From the IMG/VR virus record IMGVR_UViG_3300028992_000036: 64,000 nt of DNA. The stretch is one strand, 5' to 3'. The DNA comes from a virus. Its lineage: Duplodnaviria; Heunggongvirae; Uroviricota; Caudoviricetes. Position 1 is the stretch's first letter, and the number at the start of each line of letters is the position of its first letter. Below, piece by piece: positions 1 to 60,685 of this stretch. The position numbers were made by a program, and so were the translations under genes. The notes beneath the pieces were generated by a model that was not told the origin of the DNA, searched no databases, and saw only the letters and a program-made list of their open reading frames with translations.

Positions 1-76
1 GTTACCACCAAACGAATCGGAAAATCGATACTGGAAAAAACTCTAACTCGGTGGCCAGTTTTTGTTGACCACTTCA
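1..76 (+). mobile_element. IS3-family (IS911-like) insertion sequence, right end only; element continues beyond window start
   Basis: nt 1-76 is ~93% identical, in inverted orientation, to 55777-55852 (terminal TGAAGTG... plus transposase OrfB C-terminus ...[10 protein letters not shown]). Family name is from memory of IS911/IS3-group transposase motifs, not a search. Confidence 0.6.
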
Positions 77-820
77 ATCTCCGATCTCGCCAAGCAGGAA
101 AATGTTGCCACGAAGGCCAGAGAACATACCTCCTTCGTTACTTTTACCGCTATGGCCAGAAGCGCCGCTACGCCGCCCGCTACCACCATCGCCACTTCCA
201 GATGTACGAACGCGTACCGGCTTGCTAATCAGTTGCTGACGTCCGATAACTTCGTCCATCTGCTCACGAACCTTTTTCAGTCCCTCGGCAGCCTGACTCG
301 TTGTGACACCCCAATTACTGAGTCGCTTCGTCGTGGTATTAAGGCGCGTATTCATGCCACTCACGGACGCAGAGGCTTCTTTGACCTCCGTACCAAAGCG
401 GCTTGCGCTTTTGCTTGCATAGGTCGCCCAATCAGAGAAATCATTTAGCTCTGATTGCACTTTACGTAATGACGCGGTGAGTTTATCTACTGAAGAAGTT
501 GTCGTATCGACGCGCTCAATCAGGGCTTTAAGACCAGAATTGAGGCCGGTGATGTTGCCACGCATTTTACGCGTAGCATCTGAAGCAAGCTCAAAACCGG
601 CAGCTACATCCTGTAGTTTATCTGCTGTAGAATCGAGCTTGCTTTCCAGAACGCCAATGATACGGGCGACCGAACCCAAAGAGCGTTCAAAGGTTTGGAT
701 TTTTTGAGCAGGCTTTGTTACCTGCTCACCAAATCGAGTAAGCAGTTTCCCCGCACGATCGATTGACGCTGTAAACTGTTTGTCTTCCAGCGACAGGATA
801 AACTCTACGTTTTGTGACAT
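74..820 (-). pseudogene. tail tape measure protein, N-terminal ~250 aa only, truncated by the IS end
   Basis: Coiled-coil, Gly/Ser-rich sequence typical of tape-measure N-termini; position after the chaperone pair; stop codon TGA (74-76) is the IS terminal TGA. ATG at 820 with upstream GAGGA; track start 841 is TTG. Confidence 0.55.
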
Positions 821-827
821 TCCCTTG

Positions 828-1214
828 TCATCCTCTGCCAAATATTTGCATCAGTTGCTCTTTGGCGTCAGGGTCTGCCTTATCCTGGCTTGGATCGTAG
901 ACTTTATCTGTTACGACTGGTCTTCCAATCCTGAGTTGCAAACCCTCCATGAACGCCTTCACAGCCTCGCCATCCGCCTGGGACGCACGAGCGACTTGTA
1001 AGTTGCGGACATCCTCTTCCGCACGCAGACGGTCTATATTGCGACTGAGCATCCAGAACATCGTGAGAGGAACGTTCAGTAGCTCTAATGGCGACACGGC
1101 GTAGTGAGCAACTACACGACTGAAATAGAATCCGAGATCTATTGAGACGGTCCTTGTCCCGGATTCATCGCGGGAAATTACTTTGCCCCTTCGCCAGCCG
1201 CTTTTTCGTTTTCT
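828..1214 (-). CDS. tail assembly chaperone -1 frame extension (T-like part of a G/GT pair), putative
   Basis: The -1 frame relative to 1178..1495 is open from 1214 to 828 and overlaps the last ~12 codons of the upstream chaperone; no canonical slippery heptamer seen. Confidence 0.3.
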   Translation of the reverse strand, partial: RKRKSGWRRGKVISRDESGTRTVSIDLGFYFSRVVAHYAVSPLELLNVPLTMFWMLSRNIDRLRAEEDVRNLQVARASQADGEAVKAFMEGLQLRIGRPVVTDKVYDPSQDKADPDAKEQLMQIFGRG

Positions 1215-1495
1215 TCATCAATCACTTCCATAGCGAAGGTGAAGATCTGCTGGAGTTGCGGAACAGTCAGTTTTTCAAGAACTTCATCAGGCACTGAAGG
1301 GATAACCTTACGAACCAGATCTGCATAAGCTGTCACTTGCTCAACAGGAGACATGTTCATGAGATCTTTGCCTTCCATCTGCTTGATGGAAACGAACAAA
1401 CCTACCGTCATTTCAACGATGGGATATTCCTGACCGCCAAATTTGATGCTTTTCTTCGGAGGCAGAATGGAATCGAGATCGAGTAATTTGGTCAT
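1178..1495 (-). CDS. tail assembly chaperone (G-like), acidic C-terminus
   Basis: 105 aa; lies between major tail protein and tape measure; AAGGA RBS 10 nt upstream of ATG 1495. Confidence 0.5.
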   Translation of the reverse strand: MTKLLDLDSILPPKKSIKFGGQEYPIVEMTVGLFVSIKQMEGKDLMNMSPVEQVTAYADLVRKVIPSVPDEVLEKLTVPQLQQIFTFAMEVIDEENEKAAGEGAK

Positions 1496-1550
1496 TGGTT
1501 TAAATCCTTTTAAAAGAGAGGCTCATCCTGAGCCTCTGCTTAGTTACTGA

Positions 1551-2297
1551 TTAATCTGCGGAGTTAATCGTTACTGACTTAGTAGCCTTCTTAGAACCGC
1601 TATTGCTGGTGAAGGAGATGTTTGCAGTACCCTGCGCCACACCGCGCACAAGACCCGTTTGATCTACCGTGGCCTTTTCCTGGTCTTCGGATTCCCAAAC
1701 ACCGGTTTTGTCTGCGGCATCAGCTGGAGTGATTTCGGCTGTCAGTTGCACAGTTTCTCCAGCTTTTACGGTTGGAGATTCCGGTTTGATCGACACGGTT
1801 TTTACCGGTTTAGGGCCGCTCATTCTTCCCAGAACGCCTTCGTCATCAGGGTACGCACTGAACTGAACAGAGAACACACGAACATCATCAGACTGGTAAG
1901 TCATGGTGAAGTTACCTGCGGTCGCAGCTTTCGGGATGGTCAGAACGTAGTCGGTAGTGTCCTGCGGAGTCAGAACCAGCTCTTTGGCTACGTCGATCAG
2001 GTTGACACCCTGTGCGGAAGTGATGGTCACAGCGTTGTCGTCTTCGTTCAGAGTAGACCCCGGCATCAGATCGACCATATTTTTCAACACAGACTCGGCC
2101 AGCGGCGCAGTAATGGTAATGTTACGACCCTGCACCAGCTCGGACATAATTGTCTGCCCGTGCTGGTCGACAGTGACTTTCAGCGTTTCAGTGGCTACTT
2201 CAACCTGAACACCACCTTTGGTGTAACCCAAATCCACACCACCAAACGACACCTTACAGGCACCAAGTTTGATGTTTTTTACATGGGTATTAGACAT
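1551..2297 (-). CDS. major tail protein with C-terminal Ig-like (Big_2-type) domain
   Basis: C-terminal ...VTATDQ..ATVDQTGLV..GTA.I-type Ig repeat; position upstream of chaperones; ATG 2297 with AAGGAG RBS (track start 2333 is further upstream). Confidence 0.6.
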   Translation of the reverse strand: MSNTHVKNIKLGACKVSFGGVDLGYTKGGVQVEVATETLKVTVDQHGQTIMSELVQGRNITITAPLAESVLKNMVDLMPGSTLNEDDNAVTITSAQGVNLIDVAKELVLTPQDTTDYVLTIPKAATAGNFTMTYQSDDVRVFSVQFSAYPDDEGVLGRMSGPKPVKTVSIKPESPTVKAGETVQLTAEITPADAADKTGVWESEDQEKATVDQTGLVRGVAQGTANISFTSNSGSKKATKSVTINSAD

Positions 2298-2371
2298 TGA
2301 TGGAAAACTCCTTTTTCCGTTAATTCTACGCATTCATTGCGCTAATAGTAAGTATATACTTACCGATTAAC

Positions 2372-2755
2372 TTAATTCAATAAATAGCCAGCAAATTCAA
2401 CAGGAATGCCTGCTTCTATTAATGCTCCATCATTTTTGGGATAAATGATTGGCATCGCAATCGGTCGTACCAGTCGAAAATAAACACCACCAGATTCCGT
2501 TTCCTCTACTGGAAACATCTCAATGATTTTATTGGCTTTCTCAACCGTCGTAGTAATTGACGAACCACGCACAATGATTGTGAATGATTCGTGATAAAAG
2601 CCCTGTAGCTCATGATCGATGCTGATACCGGTATTTGGGTTAATAAGCAGGACGCCAGATTTCACATTGGCAGGCAAGTAGTGACAGAAAATGTCAGTCC
2701 CGACCGTGCCAATCTTTGCCTTCTGCATCAAACTTGCAAACGCTTCAATAAACAC
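2372..2755 (-). CDS. neck/tail-completion protein, hypothetical
   Basis: ORF in head-tail joining block; GTG 2755 preceded by GAGAGG and adjacent to the upstream stop. Confidence 0.4.
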   Translation of the reverse strand: MFIEAFASLMQKAKIGTVGTDIFCHYLPANVKSGVLLINPNTGISIDHELQGFYHESFTIIVRGSSITTTVEKANKIIEMFPVEETESGGVYFRLVRPIAMPIIYPKNDGALIEAGIPVEFAGYLLN

Positions 2756-2756
2756 A

Positions 2757-3230
2757 TTAACCTCTCGTAAATCCGGCTTTTCTGGCAGCCTCAAGAATCG
2801 CTTCTGAGAACTGCTTCTCGCTAATTTCCACCGCTCTTTCCAGAAAGTGTGGCCCAACACGGGGTTTAACACCGGCAATTGGTGGGTTTGTCACGTTCTT
2901 CATTCGAGAAAGATAACCGAGTCGGTATTTACCCAGCTCCATGTACTTAGCATAGTCACCTACTTCTACGCCCGGATGCCCCTGACGTGGTTTTGCTCCA
3001 GACACAGAAAGCTCAATACGCAGCCCTGAATAACCTTCTTTAATCACCCTGGCAAAGATGGCTGTCTCCAGAGATCCGGTTTCCAGCGGGGCCATTGCAC
3101 GGCTGAGGCGCTCAACCAAACGCGCCAGCTTTTCCATGTCCCGAATAAGATATCGCTTAAATGCTTTCTGGCTGTTGTTGAGTCTATTCCCCGCACGTTT
3201 GAACTGATGCGCATCGTATTTCAGACCCAT
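2757..3230 (-). CDS. head-tail joining protein, hypothetical
   Basis: 157-aa ORF; ATG 3230 with AGGGG RBS; overlaps upstream stop by 10 nt. Confidence 0.45.
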   Translation of the reverse strand: MGLKYDAHQFKRAGNRLNNSQKAFKRYLIRDMEKLARLVERLSRAMAPLETGSLETAIFARVIKEGYSGLRIELSVSGAKPRQGHPGVEVGDYAKYMELGKYRLGYLSRMKNVTNPPIAGVKPRVGPHFLERAVEISEKQFSEAILEAARKAGFTRG

Positions 3231-3565
3231 ATATTCGCCCCTACTTCAAGATGCCCAGGTCTTCCTCGTAGCCCCCAGCGGCGATGAACACTGGACACCT
3301 TTAATTTTTGACCTTCAAGGATCAGTACATCATCAAGTTGTACAGCCGCTTCTAAAGGGACAACTAACACAGCATCAAACAGCTCCAGACTCGCCTTACC
3401 ACGACTACCAGAGCTATCAGCACGAACTGACGATTTCTCATTACTCTGTTCGAACTTAACCACGCCGACATTCGTCTTCCTGACGAATTGTAATTGCGCC
3501 TCACCGTAAACGTTCTTTGCGCCAAAGCGGTAGATCGCAATTTCTGTTTGCCATGAAATATTCAT
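3221..3565 (-). CDS. head-tail joining protein, hypothetical
   Basis: ATG 3565 preceded by GGGAGAG RBS; track start 3661 is over-extended. Confidence 0.4.
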   Translation of the reverse strand: MNISWQTEIAIYRFGAKNVYGEAQLQFVRKTNVGVVKFEQSNEKSSVRADSSGSRGKASLELFDAVLVVPLEAAVQLDDVLILEGQKLKVSSVHRRWGLRGRPGHLEVGANIWV

Positions 3566-3644
3566 GCTCTCTCCCTGTTGTTGTCGGTCGCTCTCATTAC
3601 TGGCCAAAAAACCTTTCGACCAAAAGTAAATAATGCGACTGGCG

Positions 3645-4478
3645 TTACGCACGGCGAACAATCATACGGTTGTTGATGTAACTGACCAGCAAGCGCCAGG
3701 TACTACGAGCCACATGCACGTTTGCAGCTTTACCGGTACGGTACATGTTGGTTGTTTCACCGATGGACTCTGACAAAATGCCATCCTCTCGTGCTGCGGC
3801 TACATCATTGCCATTTGCGATCTCACACGCTTCGTTGACAACGGCAAGCATCAACGCTTCTTTGAAGTAGTCAGGGAACTCTTCAAACTTCTCCTGCGTC
3901 ATCTTTTCCCAATCGACTAAATCATGCCGGTACGCTCCATCTGCTTCCCACGGAATGTCATACACATTCAGCATATTTTGAGGGCGATCGTATCGGTCAA
4001 AGTCGATACGTAGAATTTTGCGGATTGAGAACGGTAAAGTTTTAATTCGTCTGGTAGCCTCAATGAGACGCTTGCGCATTAAGCCTTCACCATCCGACAG
4101 CAAAGTGTCCCCATTCAGCATATCGATCGCCTGCATTTGAGCATCAGCGACAGTTGCAAACGACTGTTCTGGTATCGACAGTTCAAAACTATTCAGCAGA
4201 ACATACATTTGCCGCTCTTCATGCGTCAGACCCGATGCAACAGCCTTCACAATGACGTACCGCAGATCTCGCTCTTTCTCAGAGAGCTGGTTATATTCAG
4301 CCGACACGACAACCGGAATCGACATTTGACCGCTGGTAATTTCTAGCGGCTCGCCATCAACGAGAATAGCCCCGGTGCTGTCCTTTACTGTGTAGGTGGC
4401 AGATTCGATATCCAGCACGTTGAAGGCAAATGAAAGAGAAACAGCTTCACCGCTACGATACGAGTCGATCTGCGCCAT
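3645..4478 (-). CDS. head-tail connector/adaptor-region protein, hypothetical
   Basis: 277-aa ORF; start overlaps upstream stop (TAATG), indicating translational coupling. Confidence 0.45.
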   Translation of the reverse strand: MAQIDSYRSGEAVSLSFAFNVLDIESATYTVKDSTGAILVDGEPLEITSGQMSIPVVVSAEYNQLSEKERDLRYVIVKAVASGLTHEERQMYVLLNSFELSIPEQSFATVADAQMQAIDMLNGDTLLSDGEGLMRKRLIEATRRIKTLPFSIRKILRIDFDRYDRPQNMLNVYDIPWEADGAYRHDLVDWEKMTQEKFEEFPDYFKEALMLAVVNEACEIANGNDVAAAREDGILSESIGETTNMYRTGKAANVHVARSTWRLLVSYINNRMIVRRA

Positions 4479-4912
4479 TACTCACCGCCTTGTGCTTTCA
4501 GGATGCCGTCAATCATTTCGACAATTCCTTTCGCTTTGACACCAACCTGATTACCAATAACTCGTAGACCGGCAATACCTTCGTTGTCTGCAATTGACTC
4601 CAGCTCTTCTCGTGTGAAAGTCTGGATCTGTTTGGCCGGTTCATCTGGTGTCCCACGTTTCATTGGCACAATGTCAGGCGCTGCTGGCTCGGTAATCAGG
4701 TCTGCTGTCAATTCACCACGATCACTGTATGCGGCAGACGGAGAAACATTTTTGCCCTCTACTGTTGACGCTCGCATTGAAGCACAAATCCTCTGCTGAT
4801 CGATAAAAGGCAACTCCGCTACGGATACCCCGTTCTCGAACTGAACGCCACACAGCATTCCCGAATAACCGGAAAATTGCGGTTCTAATAAAACAATTTT
4901 TGCTGGTTTCAT
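4478..4912 (-). CDS. head-associated protein, hypothetical
   Basis: 144-aa ORF; GGAGAG RBS 10 nt upstream of ATG 4912. Confidence 0.45.
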   Translation of the reverse strand: MKPAKIVLLEPQFSGYSGMLCGVQFENGVSVAELPFIDQQRICASMRASTVEGKNVSPSAAYSDRGELTADLITEPAAPDIVPMKRGTPDEPAKQIQTFTREELESIADNEGIAGLRVIGNQVGVKAKGIVEMIDGILKAQGGE

Positions 4913-4956
4913 AACGCTTTCTCTCCACTTGGGCGGCGAAAGCCGCCCAATATCGG

Positions 4957-5877
4957 TTATTCCTGTGCGGCAGTAACTTCTACAGTTGCTGTCGCTTTGT
5001 GGCTACCATCTTGGGTAGTAACCTCGATTGTGGCAGTACCAGCCGCAACACCAGTTACAACACCGGTTTCGCTGTCAACCGTTGCAAACTCGGTATTTTT
5101 GGATTCCCAAGTAACGGTTTTATTTGTGGCTCCTGCCGGCTCGACATTTGCTGTCAGCTGAACAGTTTTGTTTGCCTCAACGGTTGTGCTATTTGGGTCG
5201 ATTTCGACGCCGGTAACAGCCACAACAGGCGCAGTTACTTCCACCGTTGCAGTTGCCTTTTTGCTGCCATCTTGGGAAACGATCTCAATCGTCGCAGTGC
5301 CAACTTCTACACCAGTAACGTTCCCGCTCTGGTCTACCGTTGCCTTATCTTCATTTTTGGAAGACCAGGTAACAGCCTTATTCGTCGCATTTGACGGCTG
5401 AACATTCGCTTTCAGACTGACTGATTTCCCTTTCTCAACAGACGTTGATTCTGGCGTTACCGTTACGGATTGAACGGCTACCGGATTTACGGTGACTTCC
5501 ACTGAAGCGGAAAGCTGGGTTTCCTGATCAGTTGCAGTAATTTTTACTTTGCCTGGTGCTACGCCAGTTACTAATCCAGTGCCGTTAACGGTTGCAATTT
5601 GGTCATTGGCTGACTTCCAGGTGAATGAACTGGCACTCTTACCCATACTAATACCTGCACTAAGTTGAACAGTTTTCCCAACCAAAACTGACGGTGAAGC
5701 CGGGGTTATGTTTACGGATTGGGAGAGGGGAACCGCCTGCAAACAAGCAGATAGCTGACTTTGTTGCCGCTCGGTTAAAGGTTCATCGGAGATAGAATTG
5801 GTAAATCCGGCACGGCACATATGCCCCGTAAAATCCGAAAATGCCTCTTCCGTAATCTTCATCTTTTGTTCTGGCAT
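4957..5877 (-). CDS. head decoration protein with three tandem Ig-like (Big_2-type) domains
   Basis: Three repeats of ...ATV(D/N)..G.VTGV..G.A.I... ; immediately downstream of major capsid gene; AGGAG RBS. Confidence 0.55.
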   Translation of the reverse strand: MPEQKMKITEEAFSDFTGHMCRAGFTNSISDEPLTERQQSQLSACLQAVPLSQSVNITPASPSVLVGKTVQLSAGISMGKSASSFTWKSANDQIATVNGTGLVTGVAPGKVKITATDQETQLSASVEVTVNPVAVQSVTVTPESTSVEKGKSVSLKANVQPSNATNKAVTWSSKNEDKATVDQSGNVTGVEVGTATIEIVSQDGSKKATATVEVTAPVVAVTGVEIDPNSTTVEANKTVQLTANVEPAGATNKTVTWESKNTEFATVDSETGVVTGVAAGTATIEVTTQDGSHKATATVEVTAAQE

Positions 5878-5889
5878 TTCTCGCTCCTA

Positions 5890-5917
5890 CAAAAAGGGTG
5901 GGCGTATAGCCCACCCT
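5890..5917 (-). terminator. intrinsic terminator/attenuator between capsid and decoration genes
   Basis: GGGTGGGC-gtata-GCCCACCC hairpin followed by a T-run on the minus strand. Confidence 0.5.
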
Positions 5918-5950
5918 TTAACATAGATAACTACTTATCTACTACACTGA

Positions 5951-6826
5951 TTAAATTTTTACATTGGTCAGTGCAGCGATAGCCTTATCGTGCTTATTCG
6001 CCAGAGAGCAGTACCACTTCACACGGGTACGTACTGCGTCTTTGTTCTGTACAGTACCAATGTTTTCAACAACGATACCTGCGTTATCGCCGCCATACAG
6101 ACCAGTAACGCCGTTCTCTTCTGACAGATGCAAGCAGTAGATGCTTGCTTTGCCAGAATCAGTCGGGATGAAGTCGTTGATGATGAACGGAACGCCGTTA
6201 TGACACAGCATCGGACGACCGAAGTTCTCCATCATGATTTCAGACGGACCTACGTTTACTGTACGCAGCAGCGCACGGTAAGCACGAAGGTGCTCTGAAC
6301 GCATCATGATGCAGTCAGCACCAAGATCTTTCACCGCATCGACCAGTTCGTCGAACATAGAGAAAGTCATAGATGCACCGGCGATATCGATCTTCTGATC
6401 TGCGTGCATCAGGCGTGGAATGCCGTCAAACGCTTTGTTGTTGGTGCTGGAGTCACCCAAAATCAGATTGCGACGGAACGCACGAGCCAGACCTTTAACT
6501 TTCTGACGAACCTGAATAGCCAACTGGTTATTGGTGTCGGCCATAGTGGTTGCCAGGAATTTATCAACGTCTACGTCACCAGCCAGAATACGCAGTTTCG
6601 CAACGCATTCTTCGAAGGTTGCTGCACCTTCCGGGATGGTGTCGTTAACGTCGATGAAGGTAGCCTCACTCAGCGTTTTTTCACGGTTGTACAGATATGC
6701 CTTTGAAGTAATTTTCATAAAAGGCAGGATGGCAAACAGGTCATCGCGATCGATGATGGTTTCAATCACGCCCTGTTCAAGTTCGTTGTTAGACAGCTTT
6801 TCAGCTTCTTCACGCAGTAATGGCAT
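5951..6826 (-). CDS. major capsid protein
   Basis: 291 aa, placed scaffold -> capsid -> decoration; followed by an attenuator; AAGGG RBS. Confidence 0.6.
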   Translation of the reverse strand: MPLLREEAEKLSNNELEQGVIETIIDRDDLFAILPFMKITSKAYLYNREKTLSEATFIDVNDTIPEGAATFEECVAKLRILAGDVDVDKFLATTMADTNNQLAIQVRQKVKGLARAFRRNLILGDSSTNNKAFDGIPRLMHADQKIDIAGASMTFSMFDELVDAVKDLGADCIMMRSEHLRAYRALLRTVNVGPSEIMMENFGRPMLCHNGVPFIINDFIPTDSGKASIYCLHLSEENGVTGLYGGDNAGIVVENIGTVQNKDAVRTRVKWYCSLANKHDKAIAALTNVKI

Positions 6827-6851
6827 CTATCAATTCCCTTTGATTTAGATG

Positions 6852-7739
6852 TTACTTAAGTCCAATTTTCCCCAGACCGGAGGCCAACTTATCCATAGTC
6901 GACTTGTTCTTCGGTTGGGATATTGTGTAGGTCGATTTGGAATGTGAGCCTACACCCTGCTTGGCTTCGCTACGCATCAATGCGTCAGCTTCCGGATCTG
7001 CCCGCACAATGCGTTCAATCGCGGATTCAAACGGCAACGGCTTACCTTCACCGTCAACCAGAACAGCTCGTTCTTTATGACCTGCCGGTTTGTCATAACC
7101 CACTACGCTACCGTCTTCACCCACTTCAAAATGAGAACCGTAGATCACGCGGGCTTTTGCCGGAGTCATCAGAACTTTGTCACGTAGGAAGAGAGAGTTA
7201 CTGAAGGAAGCGCCCACGGTCATCTCGACTAATTGAGATTTCAGTGATGCGTTTTCACTTTCCAGTGCTGCATAACGTTCGTCACGCTGTGCCAGCTCTG
7301 CCTGGTGTGCTTCGATCATCTGTTTTTTAACAGCATCGAACTCACCACGACGCTCCAGTTCAGCTTGCTCCGCCTCACGACGTGCGTTTTCTGCGGCCTG
7401 TTCAGCTTCTAAAAGCTGGCGAGCACGCGCCGGGTCGATTTCACCGTACTGAGCAAGCTGATCGGCCAATGTGCGCTCTTTCTCTTTGCGCTTCATGTTC
7501 TCTTTCAGCAGTTCAGCACCAGCTTTCTTGATTTTGCGAAGTTCGGCCAGTAACTCTTCATGAGTCATGCCAGCGTATTCGTCATCACCCTTCGGCTGCT
7601 CTTTTTGTTCACCCTGCTTGTCAGGATCTTGTGTACTCTGCTCATTATCAGCAGCTACACCGCCAGCGCCCCCACGCTCATGCGCTTCAGCAACATCCAT
7701 CAGACCACGACGGGCCAAAAGCATTTGCCACAGTTTCAT
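6852..7739 (-). CDS. scaffolding protein (charged coiled-coil)
   Basis: Highly charged E/K/A/Q-rich helical sequence between portal and capsid; same AAAGGGAATT RBS context as the capsid gene. Confidence 0.55.
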   Translation of the reverse strand: MKLWQMLLARRGLMDVAEAHERGGAGGVAADNEQSTQDPDKQGEQKEQPKGDDEYAGMTHEELLAELRKIKKAGAELLKENMKRKEKERTLADQLAQYGEIDPARARQLLEAEQAAENARREAEQAELERRGEFDAVKKQMIEAHQAELAQRDERYAALESENASLKSQLVEMTVGASFSNSLFLRDKVLMTPAKARVIYGSHFEVGEDGSVVGYDKPAGHKERAVLVDGEGKPLPFESAIERIVRADPEADALMRSEAKQGVGSHSKSTYTISQPKNKSTMDKLASGLGKIGLK

Positions 7740-7760
7740 AAAAATTCCCTTTGTTACTTA

Positions 7761-9335
7761 TCACTCGTTCTCTTGAGTAGATGAGTCCCCATTCCCTCGG
7801 GGTTGATCTTGCCCGCTTTCTTGGGCTGCACCACGATCATAAGTAAGTACTGACTTATTTTCAAGGGTATTTAGATCATTTTTTGGCGGAAAATTCAAGA
7901 GATCTTTATCAAATTCCTTTTTCATCGCCTCAGTAATGTTCGGGAAAATCTTCTCAATAAGCATTTCCATCTGGTGACGACGTACAGAGTCCGGTGCCTG
8001 AAGTAATGACAGTTTCTCGGCAACAGAAAATTCATCTGTAAGGCCACGAATATCGAAACTTTCTGGATACGCAATTAAAGAGTGGTCTTCGTCCAGATCT
8101 ACCCCCATCCATTTCGCAACCAGTAGCATGATTTGGCGTTCAGCCCTTTCCAGACGCTCTGCTTTTGTGACAAGCAAGCTATTTACACGCTGGAAGTCAT
8201 ACATTTTTGCGGCACCAGATGAGTTATCAATTCCCTGTGCGTTGTCCTGCTTCGTTCGCTCACCAGCGACACCAACTGAATGGTAGATTTCGTTAATCAC
8301 CGTCTTAATCGTAGTGATGATCATCTGAGCTTGTTTCGGGTCTGGTGACAAATAAAACGGCTGGTTTCCACCTTCAGAATCGTAGGTGAAGACTCGCTTT
8401 GTGCCCATTTCAAGCACTTTAGTGTGGTTTTCATCACCAGGTAAAAGCGACTGTACCGGTATAGCCAACTGGCTAAATGTCTGATCCTGAATAATGGCAT
8501 CAAGGTTTGACAGATAGTTTGCAACCGCACGATCAAGATAAGCGATATCATCGATCAACGATGGGCTGAAATACGGTGATTCACTTTCTCCAATACAATC
8601 AACAGGAAACACAGGAACTACGCTGAGATTATGCTCACCGCTATCCTCTAAAATAACTTTTGCCTGACGGCGACCTGCTCCACCAGCGCCCTTCTTCACT
8701 TCCTCACGGAACAGATACCACTCGTTTTGTGTCCACAGACGATAACGTTGGTATTCCTGACCTGTAGAAGTAAAAGGATCTGCGTCATCACGAGCGACTT
8801 CCACAATTAACGCCCACAACATATTCCCGTCGTCGTCCCATGCCACATCCAGCATTTGCTGAGGTGAAATCCAGTAGGCGTAGGCGCGAGCATCTTTCTT
8901 TTTCTCGTCAGCTACTGACTCAACATCACCACTCATCGTGCTATCGACAACAACCCATATGCGACCGTAAATAGACGACTGCAAATCAATAGCGGCCATA
9001 AATGAGTCAATAGAGGCATTCTGGCGAGTCGCACGTTTCCAGAAATTGCGGATCTGCTCTGGTGCCTCTTCGATATTTCTATGAATGTCTTCTTTAAAGA
9101 GATATTTGTTGATGAGGTTTACCACCTCACGAGTGTGGTTGAAGCGATAAGCACGCTCAACTCGCTCCTTAAACTCCTGATCTCCCTCTTTAAAGTAACG
9201 AAAGATATTGTCTGTAAACCAACCACGCCCGCCAGCGTAAGTGCTGGCGAGGAAGTCCCAATGTTCTTTTTTCTTTTCGTATTCCGGGTGGCGTCGCGCC
9301 ACCAGATCCTTAATTTGTTTGTCGTTCAATTCCAT
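7761..9335 (-). CDS. portal protein
   Basis: 524 aa, immediately downstream of terminase large subunit, upstream of scaffold. Confidence 0.6.
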   Translation of the reverse strand: MELNDKQIKDLVARRHPEYEKKKEHWDFLASTYAGGRGWFTDNIFRYFKEGDQEFKERVERAYRFNHTREVVNLINKYLFKEDIHRNIEEAPEQIRNFWKRATRQNASIDSFMAAIDLQSSIYGRIWVVVDSTMSGDVESVADEKKKDARAYAYWISPQQMLDVAWDDDGNMLWALIVEVARDDADPFTSTGQEYQRYRLWTQNEWYLFREEVKKGAGGAGRRQAKVILEDSGEHNLSVVPVFPVDCIGESESPYFSPSLIDDIAYLDRAVANYLSNLDAIIQDQTFSQLAIPVQSLLPGDENHTKVLEMGTKRVFTYDSEGGNQPFYLSPDPKQAQMIITTIKTVINEIYHSVGVAGERTKQDNAQGIDNSSGAAKMYDFQRVNSLLVTKAERLERAERQIMLLVAKWMGVDLDEDHSLIAYPESFDIRGLTDEFSVAEKLSLLQAPDSVRRHQMEMLIEKIFPNITEAMKKEFDKDLLNFPPKNDLNTLENKSVLTYDRGAAQESGQDQPRGNGDSSTQENE

Positions 9336-11250: not shown

Positions 11251-11366
11251 AGATCCCTCTAAAACACACAGAGCGCGTCCATGCGCTCTAAAACAACTTG
11301 TTTACTGCATTTTCTAACCAACTTGTTTTCTGGGTTGTTTAATTAGGTCTGGGCATGTCTTATTAA

Positions 11367-11422
11367 GCCTGCTTCCGTATATATTTAATAAGTTACTTAT
11401 TATTTATATATACAGAAGCAGG
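11367..11422. repeat. 56-bp palindromic element (17-18-bp arms, AT-rich loop), copy 1 of 2
   Basis: GCCTGCTTCCGTATATAT ... ATATATACAGAAGCAGG; near-identical copy at 36864-36922 with the same single arm mismatch. Confidence 0.55.
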
Positions 11423-18809: not shown

Positions 18810-18859
18810 TTAATGGAATCAAGCGCCCACTATGGGCGCTTTAAAGGAGCTTTAAAAAA

Positions 18860-19084: not shown

Positions 19085-19315
19085 ATGTTTGTTCTTATCG
19101 CTGGCGTTAACGTCCATAATGAATATTATGTTAATCGCATCGCTGGGATCGCTGGTTACGCTGGGCGCGCAGTCGAGCTTATAGATGAAACGACGCGCAA
19201 AATTGACTTATTGAGCGACCAGGAGCGAAAAAAAGCAGACGTGAACGACGCTGATATATTTTTAATGTTAAAAGCGTTTGTAGAAATGGGATTTAAAATC
19301 AGTTTACACAAATAA
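19085..19315 (+). CDS. small hypothetical protein
   Basis: 76 aa; AAGGAG RBS 7 nt upstream. Confidence 0.4.
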   Translation: MFVLIAGVNVHNEYYVNRIAGIAGYAGRAVELIDETTRKIDLLSDQERKKADVNDADIFLMLKAFVEMGFKISLHK

Positions 19316-19320
19316 AATCG

Positions 19321-19346
19321 AGCGCCCACTATGGGCGCTTTTTTTC
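19321..19346 (+). terminator. Rho-independent terminator
   Basis: AGCGCCCACTATGGGCGCT hairpin + TTTTTTT; same hairpin (no T-run) at 18819-18839. Confidence 0.6.
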
Positions 19347-23075: not shown

Positions 23076-24136
23076 AAGGCTGACCGTAGGGGTGTTACGG
23101 GGGATAAAATCAGGAGTTGAATAAATACGAAAAAGGAGGCGACACCCCTCCTTCCCTCCCCACTTATACATACCTGGCTTCTTCGCTATACATGTTGTGT
23201 TTTATCTGTCTCAACCTCTCTATAGGCGTTAATGCTCACTCCTTCCAGAATGTTCTATACGGCAACTATTTCTGTTGGTGAATTGGGTGTGTTGTTCTCT
23301 CTGTCGGTGTATGTGGTTTCGTTCGTTTTGCGGTGGTTCTTCTATGGGGTGTTCTCGTCGTTTTGGTGATTGTTCTTCTCCGTGTATGGAGTAATGGCAG
23401 GTGGGCGATTCCTTTCGTTGTTGTGTTTGAGTTGTTTGTCTGGAGTGTGTGAAAGGCTTTTGCAGTTATTCGTGTATTGGGTAATGGCATTTCCCGTGAT
23501 TGTTGTGTTTCGTGTCTTTTGGGATTGAGAGAAACCTTGCGGTTACAGGCTTCGTTGGGGTTTCAGTGATTCTGGTGTTCTTCGCTGTTTGGGGAATGGC
23601 GTGTCGTGGGTATCGCGCGTATGAATGTTTTCGGATTGCCTGTGAAAGTTAGGTTGGTTGTCCGGTAGCCTGGGGAGAAGAGGTGGGTCTTTTCGGTAGC
23701 CTGCCATAAAGAGGTTGGTTGTTTTTGGAAATGGCATTTGTGTTATTTAGTTGTTTTGTTATGCCTGAAAATAAGTTGTTTATATGGTTGTGTAACGCAA
23801 CGGGAGCGATTTTGAGCGTGTGTTTTTGTTGGTAGTATGTTGGGTCGTCTGTGGTGAAAATTGGACGCTGTGGCGCTGTCTGCTGCGTAGAGTTACGGGT
23901 ATAAGCAGTGATGTGTGAAAACGTCAATTTTTTAGACCAAATCGGGTGAAAGCGTTGATGTTTCGTTGATCTGTTATTCAGTTGTTTTCTTGATTGTATA
24001 AACAACTATAACTTATTGATATTTAAGGATGTGATTGCGGGTATGGAAGAAGAGTAGTGGCGATCAACGGATTCTTATAGAAAAGAATCAAATTGTGACC
24101 GCCATTATCAACTGATTGATTTGTTTACTTGTGTAG

Positions 24137-24535
24137 TCAGTTCTCGAAATGAATAGGGTCAACGTAATGCCGCTCACCGCTTTTACCATTACACAGCACT
24201 GTAACTTTCGCCTTTTCACTCCAGGCTGAGTATAGAAAGTTCCCATCAGGTTGAACATGGTAACGAGAGAAGTAAACATCGCCGACTGAGGCGTCGAACA
24301 TGTTCCTATCTTTTTCACTTTGGGCAAGCGAGATGGATATCACCGAATTCCCATTTGGGGAAACGATTTTAAATTTATTCCCTATATCCATAACAATATT
24401 GTAACCAGGTAATTGCTTGTGTGTTTCCGGATCTATTTTCATGCATCGTGGGTACACGATAGTGTTAGGCTCTTCAACTGGCGTGGCATTAGCAGAAAGC
24501 ACAAAAAATATTAGTGCCAATGGTGCATATTTCAT
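24137..24535 (-). CDS. small secreted protein, putative
   Basis: Signal peptide MKYAPLALIFFVLSANA; GAGGGA RBS; 132 aa; low GC. Confidence 0.5.
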   Translation of the reverse strand: MKYAPLALIFFVLSANATPVEEPNTIVYPRCMKIDPETHKQLPGYNIVMDIGNKFKIVSPNGNSVISISLAQSEKDRNMFDASVGDVYFSRYHVQPDGNFLYSAWSEKAKVTVLCNGKSGERHYVDPIHFEN

Positions 24536-24735
24536 TTATCCCTCACAATTTCCAATTTTCCAGACCATCGTCTATTTCAGCGTCAGGGTGGAATTGTACC
24601 GCATCAAATCCTACATCGAGCACCTTTCGAATGTTCTTGATGGTTAGACTGGCCCCCTGAATCTCCAGACAACCAGTATCACTTAAATAAGTGATAGTCT
24701 TAATACTAGTTTTTAGACTAGTCATTGGAGAACAG

Positions 24736-25101
24736 ATGATTGATGTCTTAGGGCCGGAGAAACGCAGACGGCGTACCACACAGGAAAAGATCGCAATTGT
24801 TCAGCAGAGCTTTGAACCGGGGATGACGGTCTCCCTCGTTGCCCGGCAACATGGTGTAGCAGCCAGCCAGTTATTTCTCTGGCGTAAGCAATACCAGGAA
24901 GGAAGTCTTACTGCTGTCGCCGCCGGAGAACAGGTTGTTCCTGCCTCTGAACTTGCTGCCGCCATGAAGCAGATTAAAGAACTCCAGCGCCTGCTCGGCA
25001 AGAAAACGATGGAAAATGAACTCCTCAAAGAAGCCGTTGAATATGGACGGGCAAAAAAGTGGATAGCGCACGCGCCCTTATTGCCCGGGGATGGGGAGTA
25101 A
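24736..25101 (+). CDS. insC: IS2 transposase OrfA (InsC)
   Basis: [32 protein letters not shown]... recognised as IS2 InsC. Confidence 0.85.
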
Positions 25102-25964
25102 GCTTAGTCAGCCGTTGTCTCCGGGTGTCGCGTGCGCAGTTGCACGTCATTCTCAGACGAACCGATGACTGGATGGATGGCCGCCGCAGTCGTCACACTG
25201 ATGATACGGATGTGCTTCTCCGTATACACCATGTTATCGGAGAGCTGCCCACGTATGGTTATCGTCGGGTATGGGCGCTGCTTCGCAGACAGGCAGAACT
25301 TGATGGTATGCCTGCGATCAATGCCAAACGTGTTTACCGGATCATGCGCCAGAATGCGCTGTTGCTTGAGCGAAAACCTGCTGTACCGCCATCGAAACGG
25401 GCACATACAGGCAGAGTGGCCGTGAAAGAAAGCAATCAGCGATGGTGCTCTGACGGGTTCGAGTTCTGCTGTGATAACGGAGAGAGACTGCGTGTCACGT
25501 TCGCGCTGGACTGCTGTGATCGTGAGGCACTGCACTGGGCGGTGACTACCGGCGGCTTCAACAGTGAAACAGTACAGGACGTCATGCTGGGAGCGGTGGA
25601 ACGCCGCTTCGGCAACGATCTTCCGTCGTCTCCAGTGGAATGGCTGACGGATAATGGTTCATGCTACCGGGCTAATGAAACACGCCAGTTCGCCCGGATG
25701 TTGGGACTTGAACCGAAGAACACGGCGGTGCGGAGTCCGGAGAGTAACGGAATAGCAGAGAGCTTCGTGAAAACGATAAAGCGTGACTACATCAGTATCA
25801 TGCCCAAACCAGACGGGTTAACGGCAGCAAAGAACCTTACAGAGGCGTTCGAGCATTATAACGAATGGCATCCGCATAGTGCGCTGGGTTATCGCTCGCC
25901 ACGGGAATATCTGCGGCAGCGGGCTTGTAATGGGTTAAGTGATAACAGATGTCTGGAAATATAG
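25059..25964 (+). CDS. insD: IS2 transposase OrfB (InsD), DDE catalytic domain
   Basis: GTG start; [23 protein letters not shown]... recognised as IS2 InsD; overlaps insC in the -1 frame. Confidence 0.85.
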
Positions 25965-26165
25965 GGGCAAATCCAATGGTTTGCTATGTGACACCGTAAT
26001 CACGCAGCTTTTCTTCCCTCCCCTGACTCCCCCATACTCCGTTTCTGTACCCAATTGAGTCCGAGATTGTATGGTGCTCGAAACAGATATTTGGTAGACA
26101 CTCAGAGTCATGCTGTGTAACGAGGGTAGGGCTACTAACTGTCGTCTTATACAATTTGGTGAGTT

Positions 26166-26567: not shown

Positions 26568-28601
26568 TTACTTAACCTGGTGGCCAGGTTTAGCACCAGC
26601 ATCCGGGCTTAACAGGAAGATATCTTTCCCGCCGGGGCCAGCAGCCATCACCATGCCTTCAGAGATACCGAAGCGCATTTTACGTGGTGCCAGGTTAGCC
26701 ACCATAATGGTGTGACGACCAATCAGTGCCTGTGGATCTGGATAAGCGGAACGGATGCCTGAGAAGACATTACGCTTTTCACCACCGAGATCCAGCGTCA
26801 GGCGAAGCAGTTTGTCAGAACCTTCTACAAACTCTGCGTTTTCAATCAGCGCCACGCGCAGGTCAACTTTGGCGAAGTCGTCAAAGGTGATAGTTTCCTG
26901 AATCGGGTCGTCAGCCAGTGGGCCAGTTACCGGTGCGGCTGTGGCTTTCACTTCTTCTTTGGATGCTTCCACCAGTGCTTCAACCTGCTTCATATCGATG
27001 CGGTTATACAGTGCCTTGAACGGATTCACTTTATGGCCCAGCAGCGGTTGCTGGATACCATCCCAGGTCAGTTCTGTATTCAGGAATGCTTCTGCACGTT
27101 CAGTCAGTTTCGGCAGTACCGGTTTCAGGTACGTCATCAGCACGCGGAACAGGTTAATGCCCATAGAGCAAATCGCCTGCAGATCGGCATCGCGTCCTTC
27201 CTGCTTTGCCACCACCCACGGAGCCTGTTCATCAACATAGCGGTTAGCCAGGTCAGCCAGTGCCATGATTTCACGGATAGCTTTGCCAAATTCGCGGCTT
27301 TCCCATGCTTCGCCAATCACTTCAGCGGCATCAGTAAAGGTTTTGTACAGTTGCGGGTCAGCCAGTTCGCTTGCCAGCACGCCGTCAAAACGCTTGTTGA
27401 TAAAGCCTGCATTACGGGAGGCCAGGTTAACCACTTTGTTAACGATATCGGCATTCACACGCTGAACGAAATCTTCCAGGTTGAGATCGATATCATCAAT
27501 GCGCGAAGAGAGTTTCGCAGTGTAGTAGTAACGCAGGCTGTCGGCGTCAAAATGATTCAGCCAGGTGCTGGCTTTAATAAAGGTGCCGCGAGACTTGGAC
27601 ATCTTCGCGCCGTTCACCGTCACATAGCCGTGAACAAACAGGTTGGTCGGCTTGCGGAAGTTGCTGCCTTCCAGCATGGCAGGCCAGAACAGGCTGTGGA
27701 AGTAAACGATATCTTTGCCGATGAAGTGGTACAGCTCGGCGGTGGAGTCTTTCTTCCAGTATTCGTCGAAGCTGGTAGTGTCGCCGCGTTTGTCGCACAG
27801 ATTCTTGAAGGAACCCATGTAGCCAATCGGCGCGTCCAGCCAGACGTAGAAGTATTTGCCCGGTGCGTTCGGAATTTCAAAACCGAAGTAAGGTGCGTCA
27901 CGGGAGATATCCCACTGTTGCAGGCCAGATTCAAACCACTCCTGCATTTTGTTTGCCACCTGCTCCTGCAACGCACCGCTGCGGGTCCATGCCTGCAACA
28001 TTTCGCTGAAAGAAGGCAGATCAAAGAAGAAGTGTTCGGAATCACGCATTACCGGTGTAGCGCCAGAAACCACTGATTTCGGCTCGATCAGTTCCGTCGG
28101 GCTGTATGTCGCGCCGCAGACTTCACAGTTATCGCCGTATTGATCCGGCGCTTTACATTTCGGGCATGTGCCTTTTACAAAACGGTCCGGCAGGAACATG
28201 CCTTTTTCCGGGTCGTACAGCTGAGAGATGGTGCGGTTTTTAATAAAACCGTTCTCTTTCAGGCGAGTATAGATAAGCTCGGACAACTGACGGTTCTCTT
28301 CGCTGTGCGTCGAGTGATAGTTGTCATAGCTGATGTTAAAGCCTGCGAAATCAGTCTGATGTTCCTGACTCATTTCGCCAATCATCTGTTCCGGTGTGAT
28401 ACCAAGCTGCTGTGCTTTCAGCATGATTGGCGTACCGTGGGCATCGTCGGCACAGATGAAATTAACCTCGTGGCCGCGCATTCGCTGGTAACGAACCCAG
28501 ACATCAGCCTGGATGTGCTCCAGCATATGGCCGAGGTGGATTGAGCCGTTAGCGTACGGCAGCGCGCACGTCACCAGAATTTTCTTCGCGACTTGGGTCA
28601 T
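26568..28601 (-). CDS. metG: methionyl-tRNA synthetase
   Basis: Protein from [29 protein letters not shown]... with class I HIGH motif (HLGH) and KMSKS; 677 aa; track ORF over-extended by 43 codons. Confidence 0.95.
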
Positions 28602-28758
28602 AGTAGGCATTACTTCTTTGTAGTGAAAAGGGGCTTGATAGTAACAAAATGGCCTTATGTCTGCCATGTGATAACAGCATTTCTCATAAATGATTAAATG
28701 TCGTAGCTGGAGTACACTACAAGGCGACAATTGCGCAAATTAAAATAAAGGAGACGGG

Positions 28759-29859
28759 ATGAGCGAGTCCAAATCGCCGGATGCCCTGAGAGCAATGGTA
28801 GCCGGTACGCTGGCTAATTTTCAGCACCCAACCCTGAAACACAACCTGACTACGCTTAAAGCGTTACACCATGTTGCGTTGATGGATGACACACTGCATG
28901 TCGAACTAATCATGCCTTTCGTGTGGAATAAGCCTTTTGAAGACCTGAAAGAGCAATGTAGTGGTGATCTGCTCCGTATCACTGGCGCAAAGGCTATTGA
29001 CTGGAAGCTGTCGTACAACATTGCCACGCTTAAGCGCGTCAAAAACCAACCAGGCATTAATGGCGTTAAGAACATTATCGCCGTCAGCTCAGGCAAGGGC
29101 GGCGTGGGTAAATCCTCCACGGCGGTAAACCTGGCACTGGCGTTGGCTGCTGAAGGTGCGAAAGTTGGTATTTTGGATGCCGATATCTATGGTCCATCAA
29201 TTCCAACCATGCTGGGCGCGGAAAACCAACGTCCAACCTCACCGGACGGTACTCACATGGCACCTATCATGTCTCATGGCCTGGCAACCAACTCTATTGG
29301 TTATCTGGTCACCGACGACAATGCAATGGTGTGGCGTGGACCGATGGCCAGCAAGGCGCTGATGCAGATGTTGCAGGAAACACTGTGGCCTGATCTGGAC
29401 TATCTCGTTCTCGATATGCCACCGGGCACTGGTGATATTCAATTGACGCTGGCGCAGAACATTCCTGTAACTGGTGCGGTTGTGGTAACTACGCCGCAAG
29501 ACATCGCGCTGATCGATGCGAAGAAAGGCATTGTGATGTTCGAAAAAGTCGAAGTGCCGGTACTGGGTATCGTTGAAAACATGAGTGTGCATATTTGCAG
29601 TAACTGCGGTCATCACGAGCCAATTTTTGGCACCGGTGGCGCACAGAAACTGGCCGAGAAATACAACACGCAGTTGTTAGGCCAAATGCCACTTCATATC
29701 TCTCTTCGTGAAGATCTGGATAACGGAACACCAACCGTTATTAGTCGTCCAGATAGTGAATTTACGGCTATTTATCGTGACCTCGCAGATCGCGTTGCTG
29801 CCCAAATGTATTGGCAAGGTGAAGTAATACCTGGCGAAATCGCATTCCGCGCAGTGTGA
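28759..29859 (+). CDS. apbC: Fe-S cluster carrier ATPase ApbC/Mrp
   Basis: P-loop [12 protein letters not shown], CxxC region ICSNCGHHE; divergent from metG as in E. coli; GGAG RBS. Confidence 0.9.
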
Positions 29860-29866
29860 TAAAAAG

Positions 29867-29995
29867 GTGGTGCTTTTGCCGTTACGCACCACCCCGTCAG
29901 TAGCTGAACAGGAGGGACAGCTGATAGAAACAGAAGCCACTGGAGCACCTCAAAAACACCATCATACACTAAATCAGTAAGTTGGCAGCATCACC
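29867..29995 (-). mobile_element. IS1 remnant (left terminal ~127 bp incl. IRL and first 22 codons of insA)
   Basis: Reverse complement reads GGTGATGCTGCCAACTTACTGATTTAGTGTATGATGG...; InsA N-terminus [24 protein letters not shown]; ends 8 nt after the apbC stop. Confidence 0.8.
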
Positions 29996-30104
29996 GAGCG
30001 CCAGCGGCGAACATATGAGCTTCGGAAATACTAGACATTCTTAACTCCGTTGTTTTCTAGTTGTGGTTATTTTCACAAATAAGAAAAGATAGAAAACAAT
30101 TTAT

Positions 30105-36863: not shown

Positions 36864-36922
36864 AGCCTGCTTCCGTATATTAATAATTAATATGTAGTTA
36901 TTTATATATACAGAAGCAGGCT
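36864..36922. repeat. palindromic element, copy 2 of 2
   Basis: AGCCTGCTTCCGTATAT ... ATATATACAGAAGCAGGCT; same arms and same mismatch as copy 1. Confidence 0.55.
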
Positions 36923-52769: not shown

Positions 52770-52871
52770 GTATGCTGTCAGCGGTAATTGATAGTCTGTC
52801 AGCGGTTCACCGTATGCTGCCAACTGTTTTTGGTATTCTGTCAGCGGCAAATCAAGTATGCTGTCAGCGGT
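52770..52871. repeat. replication iterons, upstream set (5 copies, ~21-22 bp phase)
   Basis: (G)TATGCTGTCAGCGGT-type direct repeats at 52770, 52791, 52811, 52832, 52856. Confidence 0.7.
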
Positions 52872-52891
52872 TGAATGACAAAGGTGTCCAC

Positions 52892-55604: not shown

Positions 55605-55783
55605 GTGTTTTCTCCTTGTTGGTAAGTACTTATCTATCTTAATGGGCGCTATAAGGCGCACAATCATTGTGTTCAGGCTGGTGGAAAGAACTTCTCCAGC
55701 GTGTGGTTGATAGCCTTATCAATGTGCATCAGGTGCCAGACGACCATATCTTTGCTTCCAATGCCGCGAGTGTAGATGAAGTG

Positions 55784-56289
<506 letters not shown>

Positions 56290-56480
56290 TGGCTCGGTCA
56301 CGGCGAACTGCCGTTCAAGGTAGTTAGGGATAGCAACATGTTCATGACCACCACGTTTATACCGGTGAGTCGGCTGCTGACAGCTGACCAGCCCCAGCTC
56401 CTTGGCAATTTGACGTCCTTTCAGGCCTGGTGACCCACCTAATAACTCTGAGACTGCCTTCAGCAAACCATCACTCCTTT

Positions 56481-59498: not shown

Positions 59499-59512
59499 AA
59501 TTGTAAGTTCCC

Positions 59513-60676: not shown

Positions 60677-60685
60677 ATTCGCTTC

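What the first reader, a model, noticed from the sequence alone, without database searches (positions are those of the whole stretch)
1..841. Tape-measure gene truncated by an IS end that supplies its stop codon
The tape-measure-like ORF ends at TGA 74-76, which is the terminal TGA of an IS911-like end. Tape-measure proteins are normally several hundred to over a thousand residues, so only the N-terminal ~250 aa remain and the virion module is probably defective. An inverted partial copy of the same IS lies at 55777, bracketing ~55.7 kb.
Basis: seen in the sequence. Interest (0 to 1): 0.5.

Follow-up and report, generated by a model that had tools for sequence, protein, structure and literature searches.

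The report
IS911 insertion truncating phage-plasmid tape-measure gene
A common jumping gene (IS911-type insertion sequence) has landed in the tail-length "tape-measure" gene of an E. coli SSU5-like phage-plasmid and cut it to 16% of its length, which probably stops virus particle production; this is ordinary decay of a mobile element.

Summary
Window 77-820 (- strand) is codons 1-248 of a tape-measure gene that has 1,523 codons in near-identical E. coli SSU5-like phage-plasmids such as pSJC33-2. Similarity to those plasmids stops exactly at 76|77. Window 1-76 is the right end of a 1,250-bp IS911-type element, and its terminal TGA (76..74, - strand) falls in frame as the stop codon.

No other tape-measure sequence is in the window. 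All other phage and plasmid genes checked are intact at 97-100% amino-acid identity apart from a divergent hsdS (75%), so the hit looks recent.

The same truncated gene, at 100% DNA identity, is on 21 public metagenome contigs. All of them end 28-125 nt inside the IS, so the IS body and the other junction are unassembled. Whether the remaining 1,275 codons lie beyond the IS could not be determined.

The inverted partial copy at 55777-56403 is real. It is an older remnant (about 95.6% identical) shared with about 35 plasmids, including pSJC33-2, whose tape-measure gene is intact. The window is collinear with pSJC33-2, so the "bracketing" means nothing structurally.

Loss of tail assembly is inferred, not tested. 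This is a routine IS knockout and of low interest.

The parts
1..76 (+). Right end of an IS911-type (IS3 family) insertion sequence. It holds the last 14 codons of the transposase orfB (2-43), its stop TAA (44-46), and the terminal inverted repeat ending ...GACCACTTCA at 76. The IS body lies to the left, outside the window, and the transposase is antisense to the tape-measure gene.
   Evidence: 100% identity over 77 nt to the IS in phage SEN22 and 97.4% to the annotated IS911 in Sf6. The SEN22 copy is 1,250 bp, has a 3-bp direct repeat AAT and carries the A AAA AAG frameshift motif. Its orfB matches the IS3-family transposase model. Contig L006 extends the identity to 125 nt.
74..76 (-). In-frame TGA stop codon, formed by the first three bases of the IS terminal repeat (TGAAGTGG...).
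   Evidence: Translation ends ...GEIGD*. The intact gene reads on as ...GEIGDAARTVTDIMFGW....
77..820 (-). Codons 1-248 of the tape-measure gene (ATG at 820..818). The mechanical ORF can be extended to a TTG at 841. This is 16% of the 1,523-codon gene and ends just before the Pfam TMP_3 domain.
   Evidence: 99.6-99.9% identity to nt 1-744 / aa 1-248 of the pSJC33-2 tape-measure gene. Nothing else in the window matches the gene. In the full-length protein, PF20155 covers residues 264-451 and PF09718 covers 1150-1215; the fragment reaches no curated cut-off.
77..79 (.). ATC, the presumed 3-bp target site. It should be duplicated at the unseen left junction.
   Evidence: Inference only. The same IS isoform in SEN22 has a 3-bp duplication. 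The other junction was not found.
55777..56403 (-). Older, inverted remnant of an IS911-family element. It keeps the 3' half of orfB and the right terminal repeat (IS positions 617-1249) and has no left end. It includes the masked run 56253-56289.
   Evidence: blastn gives 89.1% over 633 nt with the 37 Ns counted as mismatches, about 95.6% without them. rve integrase-core domains are detected, and there is a partial, sub-cut-off match to the IS3-family transposase model (145.5 bits against a cut-off of 160). The remnant is also present in pSJC33-2 and about 35 PLSDB plasmids.

Best explanation
The window is part of an E. coli SSU5-like phage-plasmid, an element that replicates as a plasmid and can form long-tailed (siphovirus) particles. 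A 1.25-kb IS911-type insertion sequence transposed into its tape-measure gene between codons 248 and 249, in the orientation antisense to the gene.

IS3-family ends begin 5'-TGA, and here that TGA falls in frame. Translation therefore stops immediately, giving a 248-residue N-terminal fragment. The fragment lacks both recognised tape-measure domains and the C-terminal 84% of the protein.

Without a full tape-measure protein, tail assembly should fail. The element would then persist only as a plasmid; its RepB, ParB-like and other genes are intact.

The contig starts inside the IS because the IS is a multi-copy repeat that short-read assemblers cannot cross.

Shown: the junction, the identity of both partners, the truncation, and the intactness of neighbouring genes. 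Inferred: that a complete IS with the rest of the gene lies upstream, that a 3-bp target duplication exists, and that virion production is lost.
For: - The junction is exact at 76|77 against 406 related plasmids. Intact relatives read straight through it.
- Window 1-76 matches the IS911-type right end.
- Only codons 1-248 of 1,523 are present in the window.
- The tape-measure gene is about 1,523-1,527 aa in the best 120 database clusters. It spans about 4.57 kb uninterrupted in 203 of 233 complete E. coli genomes that carry it.
- The close relative Cyrano (97.6% DNA identity) makes virions with 259-nm tails from a 1,525-aa tape-measure protein (PMC9928086).
- 66 of 68 other pSJC33-2 genes lying wholly in the window align full-length, at 97-100% amino-acid identity (hsdS 75%), so the lesion is recent.
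- The same junction occurs at 100% identity on 21 contigs from three assembly sources. Each ends 28, 97 or 125 nt into the IS, depending on the assembler, which is the signature of a repeat.
- Another plasmid, pM160133_p3, has a different IS (IS629-like, 3-bp duplication) 92 nt further into the same gene. Independent IS hits in this gene therefore occur.
- Gene inactivation by transposases that turns phage-plasmids into plain plasmids is described in PMC10879196.
Against: - The IS body, its left end and the rest of the tape-measure gene were never seen.
- Searches for the predicted left junction found nothing. Exact look-ups of five predicted remainder proteins also found nothing.
- A deletion or rearrangement next to the IS therefore cannot be excluded.
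- No expression or particle data exist.
- An intact copy of the phage-plasmid in the same host, or in another population member, could complement the defect.
Confidence: 0.85

Rival explanations
1. The IS insertion was accompanied or followed by an adjacent deletion or rearrangement. The remaining 1,275 tape-measure codons, and perhaps the downstream tail genes, are then gone or moved, and the element is a more deeply degraded phage-plasmid.
For: No remainder is in the window. The predicted simple-insertion left junction is absent from the DNA collections scanned. Five predicted remainder ORFs are not in the 15-billion-protein collection.
Against: Those negatives are weak. The right junction, which certainly exists in JGI, ENA and Logan assemblies, was also missed by the same DNA scans. 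The exact look-ups fail on a single residue difference or a different start codon. Every other gene examined is intact, which fits a single recent event.
Confidence: 0.2
2. The two inverted IS copies act together, so that the 55.7-kb segment, or the complementary arc of the plasmid, is a composite transposon or has been inverted by recombination between the copies.
For: Two related IS right ends face each other across 55.7 kb.
Against: - The window is collinear with pSJC33-2 from 77 to 64000, so there is no inversion.
- The right copy is a 627-nt remnant with no left end and no complete transposase.
- It differs from the left copy by 2 indels and 3 substitutions in the terminal 76 nt, including a deletion in the terminal TGAAGTGG.
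- It pre-exists in about 35 plasmids, including pSJC33-2, which has an intact tape-measure gene.
Confidence: 0.02
3. The junction is an assembly chimera between the plasmid and a chromosomal IS, and the tape-measure gene is really intact.
For: The contig ends inside a repeat, which is where mis-joins arise.
Against: The identical junction was assembled independently by MEGAHIT (ENA), the JGI pipeline and Logan in at least five runs or samples. A unitig that runs from unique sequence into a repeat end reflects real reads that span the junction.
Confidence: 0.02

Closest known systems
IS911 (IS3 family) insertions in phage genomes, e.g. IS911 in Shigella phage Sf6 and the IS911-type copy in Salmonella phage SEN22
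   Same: The terminal sequence matches: 97.4% to the Sf6 copy and 100% to the SEN22 copy. It is the same element type, 1,250 bp with a 3-bp duplication in SEN22. In both cases the insertion lies in a temperate-phage genome.
   Different: The target here is the tape-measure gene of a phage-plasmid. Only 76 nt of the IS are visible (125 nt in a sister contig).
pM160133_p3 (NZ_CP022167.1), a sister E. coli SSU5-like phage-plasmid with an IS629-like element in the same tape-measure gene
   Same: It has the same plasmid backbone (reported as 100.0% identity over window 77-6000, though one search shows one residue difference). The same gene is interrupted by an IS3-family element only 92 nt away from this site, and the gene is absent from the PLSDB gene table for that plasmid.
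   Different: It is a different IS (TGAACCGCCCCGGG... ends) at a different site, from an independent event. There the whole IS and both gene halves are assembled.
Escherichia phage Cyrano (pLF82) and Salmonella phage SSU5, functional SSU5-like phage-plasmids
   Same: The structural gene module is collinear, at 97.6% (Cyrano) and 81% (SSU5) DNA identity. Cyrano has a 1,525-aa tape-measure protein and 259-nm tails.
   Different: Their tape-measure genes are intact and virions are produced. Here only 248 codons remain in frame.
Defective phage-plasmids that have become plain plasmids (P1-like cases, Pfeifer and Rocha 2024, PMC10879196)
   Same: Loss of a phage function by gene inactivation while replication and partition functions remain.
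   Different: That study concerns P1-like elements with many lost genes. This is an SSU5-like element with a single visible lesion, which would be the first step of that path.

Membership tests
IS3 family, IS911 group | Terminal inverted repeat beginning 5'-TG (TGAAGTGG...) with near-identity to a curated IS911 end | tested here: met
   Window 76..1 (- strand) reads TGAAGTGGTCAACAAAAACTGGCCACC.... It is 97.4% identical to the feature annotated 'insertion sequence:IS911' in Sf6 and 100% identical to the SEN22 copy.
IS3 family, IS911 group | About 1,250-bp body with orfA/orfB, an A AAA AAG -1 frameshift site and a DDE (rve) transposase | not testable with these tools
   The body lies outside the window, and all 21 public contigs stop at most 125 nt into it. 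These features are present in the identical-ended SEN22 copy. The last 14 orfB codons in window 2-43 match that copy.
IS3 family, IS911 group | 3-bp target-site duplication | not testable with these tools
   The left junction was not found. The SEN22 copy has the duplication AAT.
Phage tail tape-measure protein | Homology to a full-length protein carrying tape-measure domains (PF20155 TMP_3, PF09718 Tape_meas_lam_C) | tested here: met
   The fragment equals residues 1-248 of a 1,523-aa protein (99.6% identity). That protein scores 95.5 bits on PF20155 (cut-off 41) and 49.1 bits on PF09718 (cut-off 23). The fragment itself contains neither domain.
Phage tail tape-measure protein | Position in the tail module, after the tail tube and two small chaperone-like ORFs and before the minor tail proteins | tested here: met
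   In pSJC33-2 the gene lies between two small ORFs (74 and 105 aa; window 831-1052 and 1181-1495) and the genes for phage tail protein, minor tail protein L, C40 peptidase, tail assembly protein and a 1,574-aa tail protein.
SSU5-like phage-plasmid | Collinear genome with phage head/tail/packaging genes plus plasmid replication (RepB) and partition functions, related to SSU5 | tested here: met
   The window is 99.3-100% identical and collinear with pSJC33-2 up to 61480, and 98.7% over 62055-64000. The 6-kb structural-gene query (window 1-6000) is 97.6% identical to Cyrano and 81% to SSU5. Portal, terminase, capsid, ParB-like and RepB genes are all intact.
Composite transposon or IS-mediated inversion | Two transposition-competent IS copies bounding a segment that is mobile or rearranged relative to relatives | tested here: not met
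   The right copy is a 627-nt remnant that predates the event. The segment is collinear with a relative that lacks the left IS.

The most novel reading that the evidence does not exclude
The gene is split rather than destroyed. The 1,267-codon remainder (from Met257) lies just beyond the IS. It would be transcribed by read-through or from an outward-facing promoter at the IS end and translated from its internal ATG. The resulting N-terminally shortened tape-measure protein would still nucleate tails, giving infectious particles with tails about 17% shorter. This would be a natural version of the classical lambda gpH deletion experiments (recalled from memory, not checked here).
Probability: 0.03. 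Interest if true: 0.45.

Novelty: already known. Interest (0 to 1): 0.12.

Why it matters
The finding matters mainly for annotation. This copy of a widespread E. coli phage-plasmid should be labelled as carrying a tape-measure pseudogene and as probably unable to make virions.

It is also a small, clean example of the first step by which a phage-plasmid may become a plain plasmid: one IS hit with everything else intact. The same allele was recovered at 100% identity from several gut or environmental metagenome assemblies. It does not open any new question.

Tried and rejected
**Finding the source record or a contig that crosses the IS**
- The 300-nt junction query found no record covering both sides in PLSDB or in 5,426 complete E. 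coli genomes.
- The exact 32-nt junction found no match in the GTDB representative genomes, IMG/VR or the JGI metagenome collection.

**Finding the left junction**
- The pattern CAGTAACCGTTCTGGCTGC-N2-6-TGAAGTG found nothing in the metagenome or viral contigs.
- Five predicted products of the remainder (starts at Met257, 271, 274 and 277; D895 and N895 variants) are not in the protein collection.
- A sample of 40 of the 2,182 members of the tape-measure cluster showed no product of about 1,267 aa.
- These negatives are weak for the reasons given under the rival explanations.

**Readings rejected**
- Composite transposon or inversion: rejected on collinearity and on the prior existence of the remnant.
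- Assembly chimera: rejected because independent assemblies agree.

**Other searches**
- tRNA and Rfam scans of the window found nothing.

Full report
**What is at the coordinates**

The - strand ORF 74..841 translates to a 255-aa product ending ...GNIFLLGEIGD*, with its stop at 76..74. RefSeq annotators of near-identical plasmids start the gene at the ATG that corresponds to window 820, which gives 248 codons.

The first 76 bases of the window, read on the - strand, are TGAAGTGGTCAACAAAAACTGGCCACCGAGTTAGAG.... On the + strand they encode the last 14 codons and the TAA stop of a transposase orfB (positions 2-46), followed by the terminal inverted repeat.

**What the element is**

The 6-kb query (window 1-6000) matches 406 plasmids over at least 80% of its length. 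Nearly all are about 100-115 kb and from E. coli, and they are typed non-mobilizable with replicon rep_cluster_488. The same query matches Escherichia phage Cyrano at 97.6% and Salmonella phage SSU5 at 81%.

The window is collinear with the complete plasmid pSJC33-2 (NZ_CP080257.1, 113,446 bp):

| Window | pSJC33-2 | Identity |
|---|---|---|
| 77-23703 | 32935-56558 | 99.8% |
| 23651-24645 | 56536-57529 | 99.3% |
| 25976-56252 | 57524-87799 | 99.97% |
| 56290-61480 | 87841-93031 | 100% |
| 62055-64000 | 93608-95553 | 98.7% |

It is therefore part of an SSU5-like phage-plasmid. The window carries the head, packaging and proximal tail genes, ParB-like genes, nucleotide-metabolism genes, repB and a type I restriction-modification operon.

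**The junction**

Every related plasmid aligns from window 77 onward and none aligns across 76|77. pSJC33-2 reads ...GTTCTGGCTGC|ATCTCCGATCTCGCC... where the window reads ...GACCACTTCA|ATCTCCGATCTCGCC....

In pSJC33-2 the gene is a 4,572-nt, 1,523-aa tape-measure gene. The window holds only nt 1-744 / aa 1-248 of it (one substitution, S92G), and blastn and tblastn find no other piece in the 64 kb.

The full-length protein carries PF20155 (TMP_3) at residues 264-451 and PF09718 at 1150-1215. The fragment stops 16 residues before the first of these and reaches no curated Pfam cut-off.

Tape-measure proteins of this family are uniformly 1,520-1,527 aa among the best 120 clusters, partial contig-edge products aside. 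The gene is uninterrupted in 203 of the 233 complete E. coli genomes that carry it.

**The IS**

Window 1-77 is 100% identical to the right end of a mobile element in Salmonella phage SEN22, and window 1-76 is 97.4% identical to the annotated IS911 of Shigella phage Sf6. The SEN22 copy has these features:
- It is 1,250 bp long.
- It starts TGAAGTGGTTTACTGAATTTGG and ends ...GTTGACCACTTCA.
- It is flanked by a 3-bp duplication, AAT.
- It contains the A AAA AAG frameshift motif.
- Its orfB matches the IS3-family transposase model at 313 bits against a cut-off of 160.

The sister contig L006 extends the identity to 125 nt. So the stop codon is the terminal TGA of an IS911-type element inserted antisense to the gene. 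Because these ends begin TGA, one insertion frame in three gives an immediate stop. That detail needs no special explanation.

**Is the junction real, and what lies upstream?**

The exact 248-aa product is on 21 public contigs (ENA ERR525811; Logan ERR525812, SRR29931317 and SRR29931322; JGI 3300045988). The five loci fetched are 100% identical to the window over up to 10,820 nt.

All of them end inside the IS, 28 nt (Logan), 97 nt (JGI) or 125 nt (MEGAHIT k127) from its tip. The window has 76 nt. That pattern is what a multi-copy repeat produces.

The protein's longest contig is 67,174 nt, and it occurs only in metagenome-derived sources. The window is therefore probably the first 64 kb of a contig that begins in the IS.

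I tried to find the predicted left junction and the predicted product of the remainder, without success. These negatives are weak, because the DNA collections also failed to return the right junction, which demonstrably exists.

The working model is a complete IS with the remaining 1,275 codons immediately beyond it. I put that at about 0.65-0.7, and an IS-associated deletion at about 0.2. Both leave the element without a functional tape-measure gene.

**The second IS copy**

Positions 55777-56403 match IS positions 617-1249 in inverted orientation. Identity is 89.1% with the 37 masked Ns counted as mismatches, and about 95.6% without them. The copy has rve integrase domains but no left end and no orfA.

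In the terminal 76 nt it differs from the left copy by two 1-nt deletions and three substitutions. It is also present in pSJC33-2. Together with 127 nt of its left flank, it recurs at 95.7-100% identity in 29 listed PLSDB records, and about 35 records cover at least 80% of the query. These come from E. coli, E. fergusonii and Enterobacter sp.

pSJC33-2 has an intact tape-measure gene. The remnant is therefore an older scar next to the restriction-modification island, unrelated to the tape-measure insertion. With collinearity throughout, there is no inversion and no composite transposon.

**Consequence (inferred)**

By established knowledge of siphovirus tail assembly (stated from memory: lambda gpH and relatives), the C-terminal part of the tape-measure protein is built into the tail-tip initiator, and the tube polymerises along the protein. 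A 248-residue N-terminal fragment should not support tail formation.

The relative Cyrano makes virions with 259-nm tails from a 1,525-aa tape-measure protein (PMC9928086). This allele should yield tailless heads at best. There may also be polarity on the downstream tail genes.

Of the other 68 pSJC33-2 genes that lie wholly in the window, 66 align full-length, at 97-100% amino-acid identity apart from a divergent hsdS specificity subunit (75%). Two small hypothetical genes align over 82 of 99 and 108 of 109 residues. The insertion therefore looks recent, and the element should persist as a plasmid. This is the kind of transposase-mediated inactivation discussed for phage-plasmids in PMC10879196.

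An independent IS629-like insertion 92 nt further into the same gene in pM160133_p3 shows that such hits recur.

**Verdict**

The "bracketing" is coincidental. The feature is an ordinary IS knockout of a known gene in a known family of elements, so novelty is "already known" and interest is low.

Noticed in passing
window 24645-25975 (direct repeats 24640-24644 and 25976-25980): A complete 1,331-bp IS2 with a 5-bp target duplication, ATGGT. It is absent from pSJC33-2. Its two ORFs match the NCBIfam models for IS2 TnpA (276 bits, cut-off 229) and IS2 TnpB (726 bits, cut-off 597). It lies in a stretch with no gene in the PLSDB gene table, so this plasmid copy has acquired at least two ISs relative to its closest complete relative.
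   Followed up: yes
window 26571-29856, with an IS1 fragment at about 29866-30003: The phage-plasmid carries metG (methionine-tRNA ligase) and apbC. They are arranged as in the chromosome but are only about 90% identical to the E. coli chromosomal locus, and a roughly 130-nt IS1 fragment lies next to them. This looks like a chromosomal segment captured from another enterobacterium. It is shared with pSJC33-2 and pM160133_p3. A 52-nt repeat (21174, 26446, 30069) flanks the segment.
   Followed up: partly
window 52771-52847 and 53987-54512: Iteron-like repeats (TATGCTGTCAGCGG and variants) lie on both sides of repB (52772-53983). This is presumably the plasmid replication origin and its copy-control sites.
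   Followed up: no
window 55650-56484: The IS911-family remnant lies between small hypothetical genes and the type I restriction-modification operon. The operon comprises hsdR (56484-59498), a DUF4268 gene, hsdS (60689-62014, only 75% amino-acid identity to pSJC33-2) and hsdM. The junction plus remnant also occurs about 2.7 kb from the record start in plasmids of very different sizes (52-231 kb) and species, which suggests a shared rep-proximal module. A - strand reading frame open from 55776 to its stop at about 55678 looks like the 3' end of a gene cut by the remnant.
   Followed up: partly
window 56253-56289: A run of 37 Ns lies inside the IS remnant, where pSJC33-2 has 41 nt. The 56,282-nt JGI contig that carries the same junction would end at about this position. 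The run could therefore be a masked stretch or could mark an assembly weak point.
   Followed up: no
window 11366-11422 and 36864-36920; 18812-18842 and 19311-19341: Two families of repeated palindromic elements lie in intergenic positions: AGCCTGCTTCCGTATATA...TATATACAGAAGCAGG, and a GC-rich hairpin GCGCCCACTATGGGCGC followed by Ts. They are probably terminators or regulatory hairpins.
   Followed up: no
L001 (NZ_CP022167.1) 6599-7908: The sister plasmid pM160133_p3 has a 1,310-bp IS629-like element with a 3-bp duplication (CGA) in the same tape-measure gene, 92 nt downstream (in the gene's sense) of the site hit here. This is an independent knockout of the same gene.
   Followed up: yes
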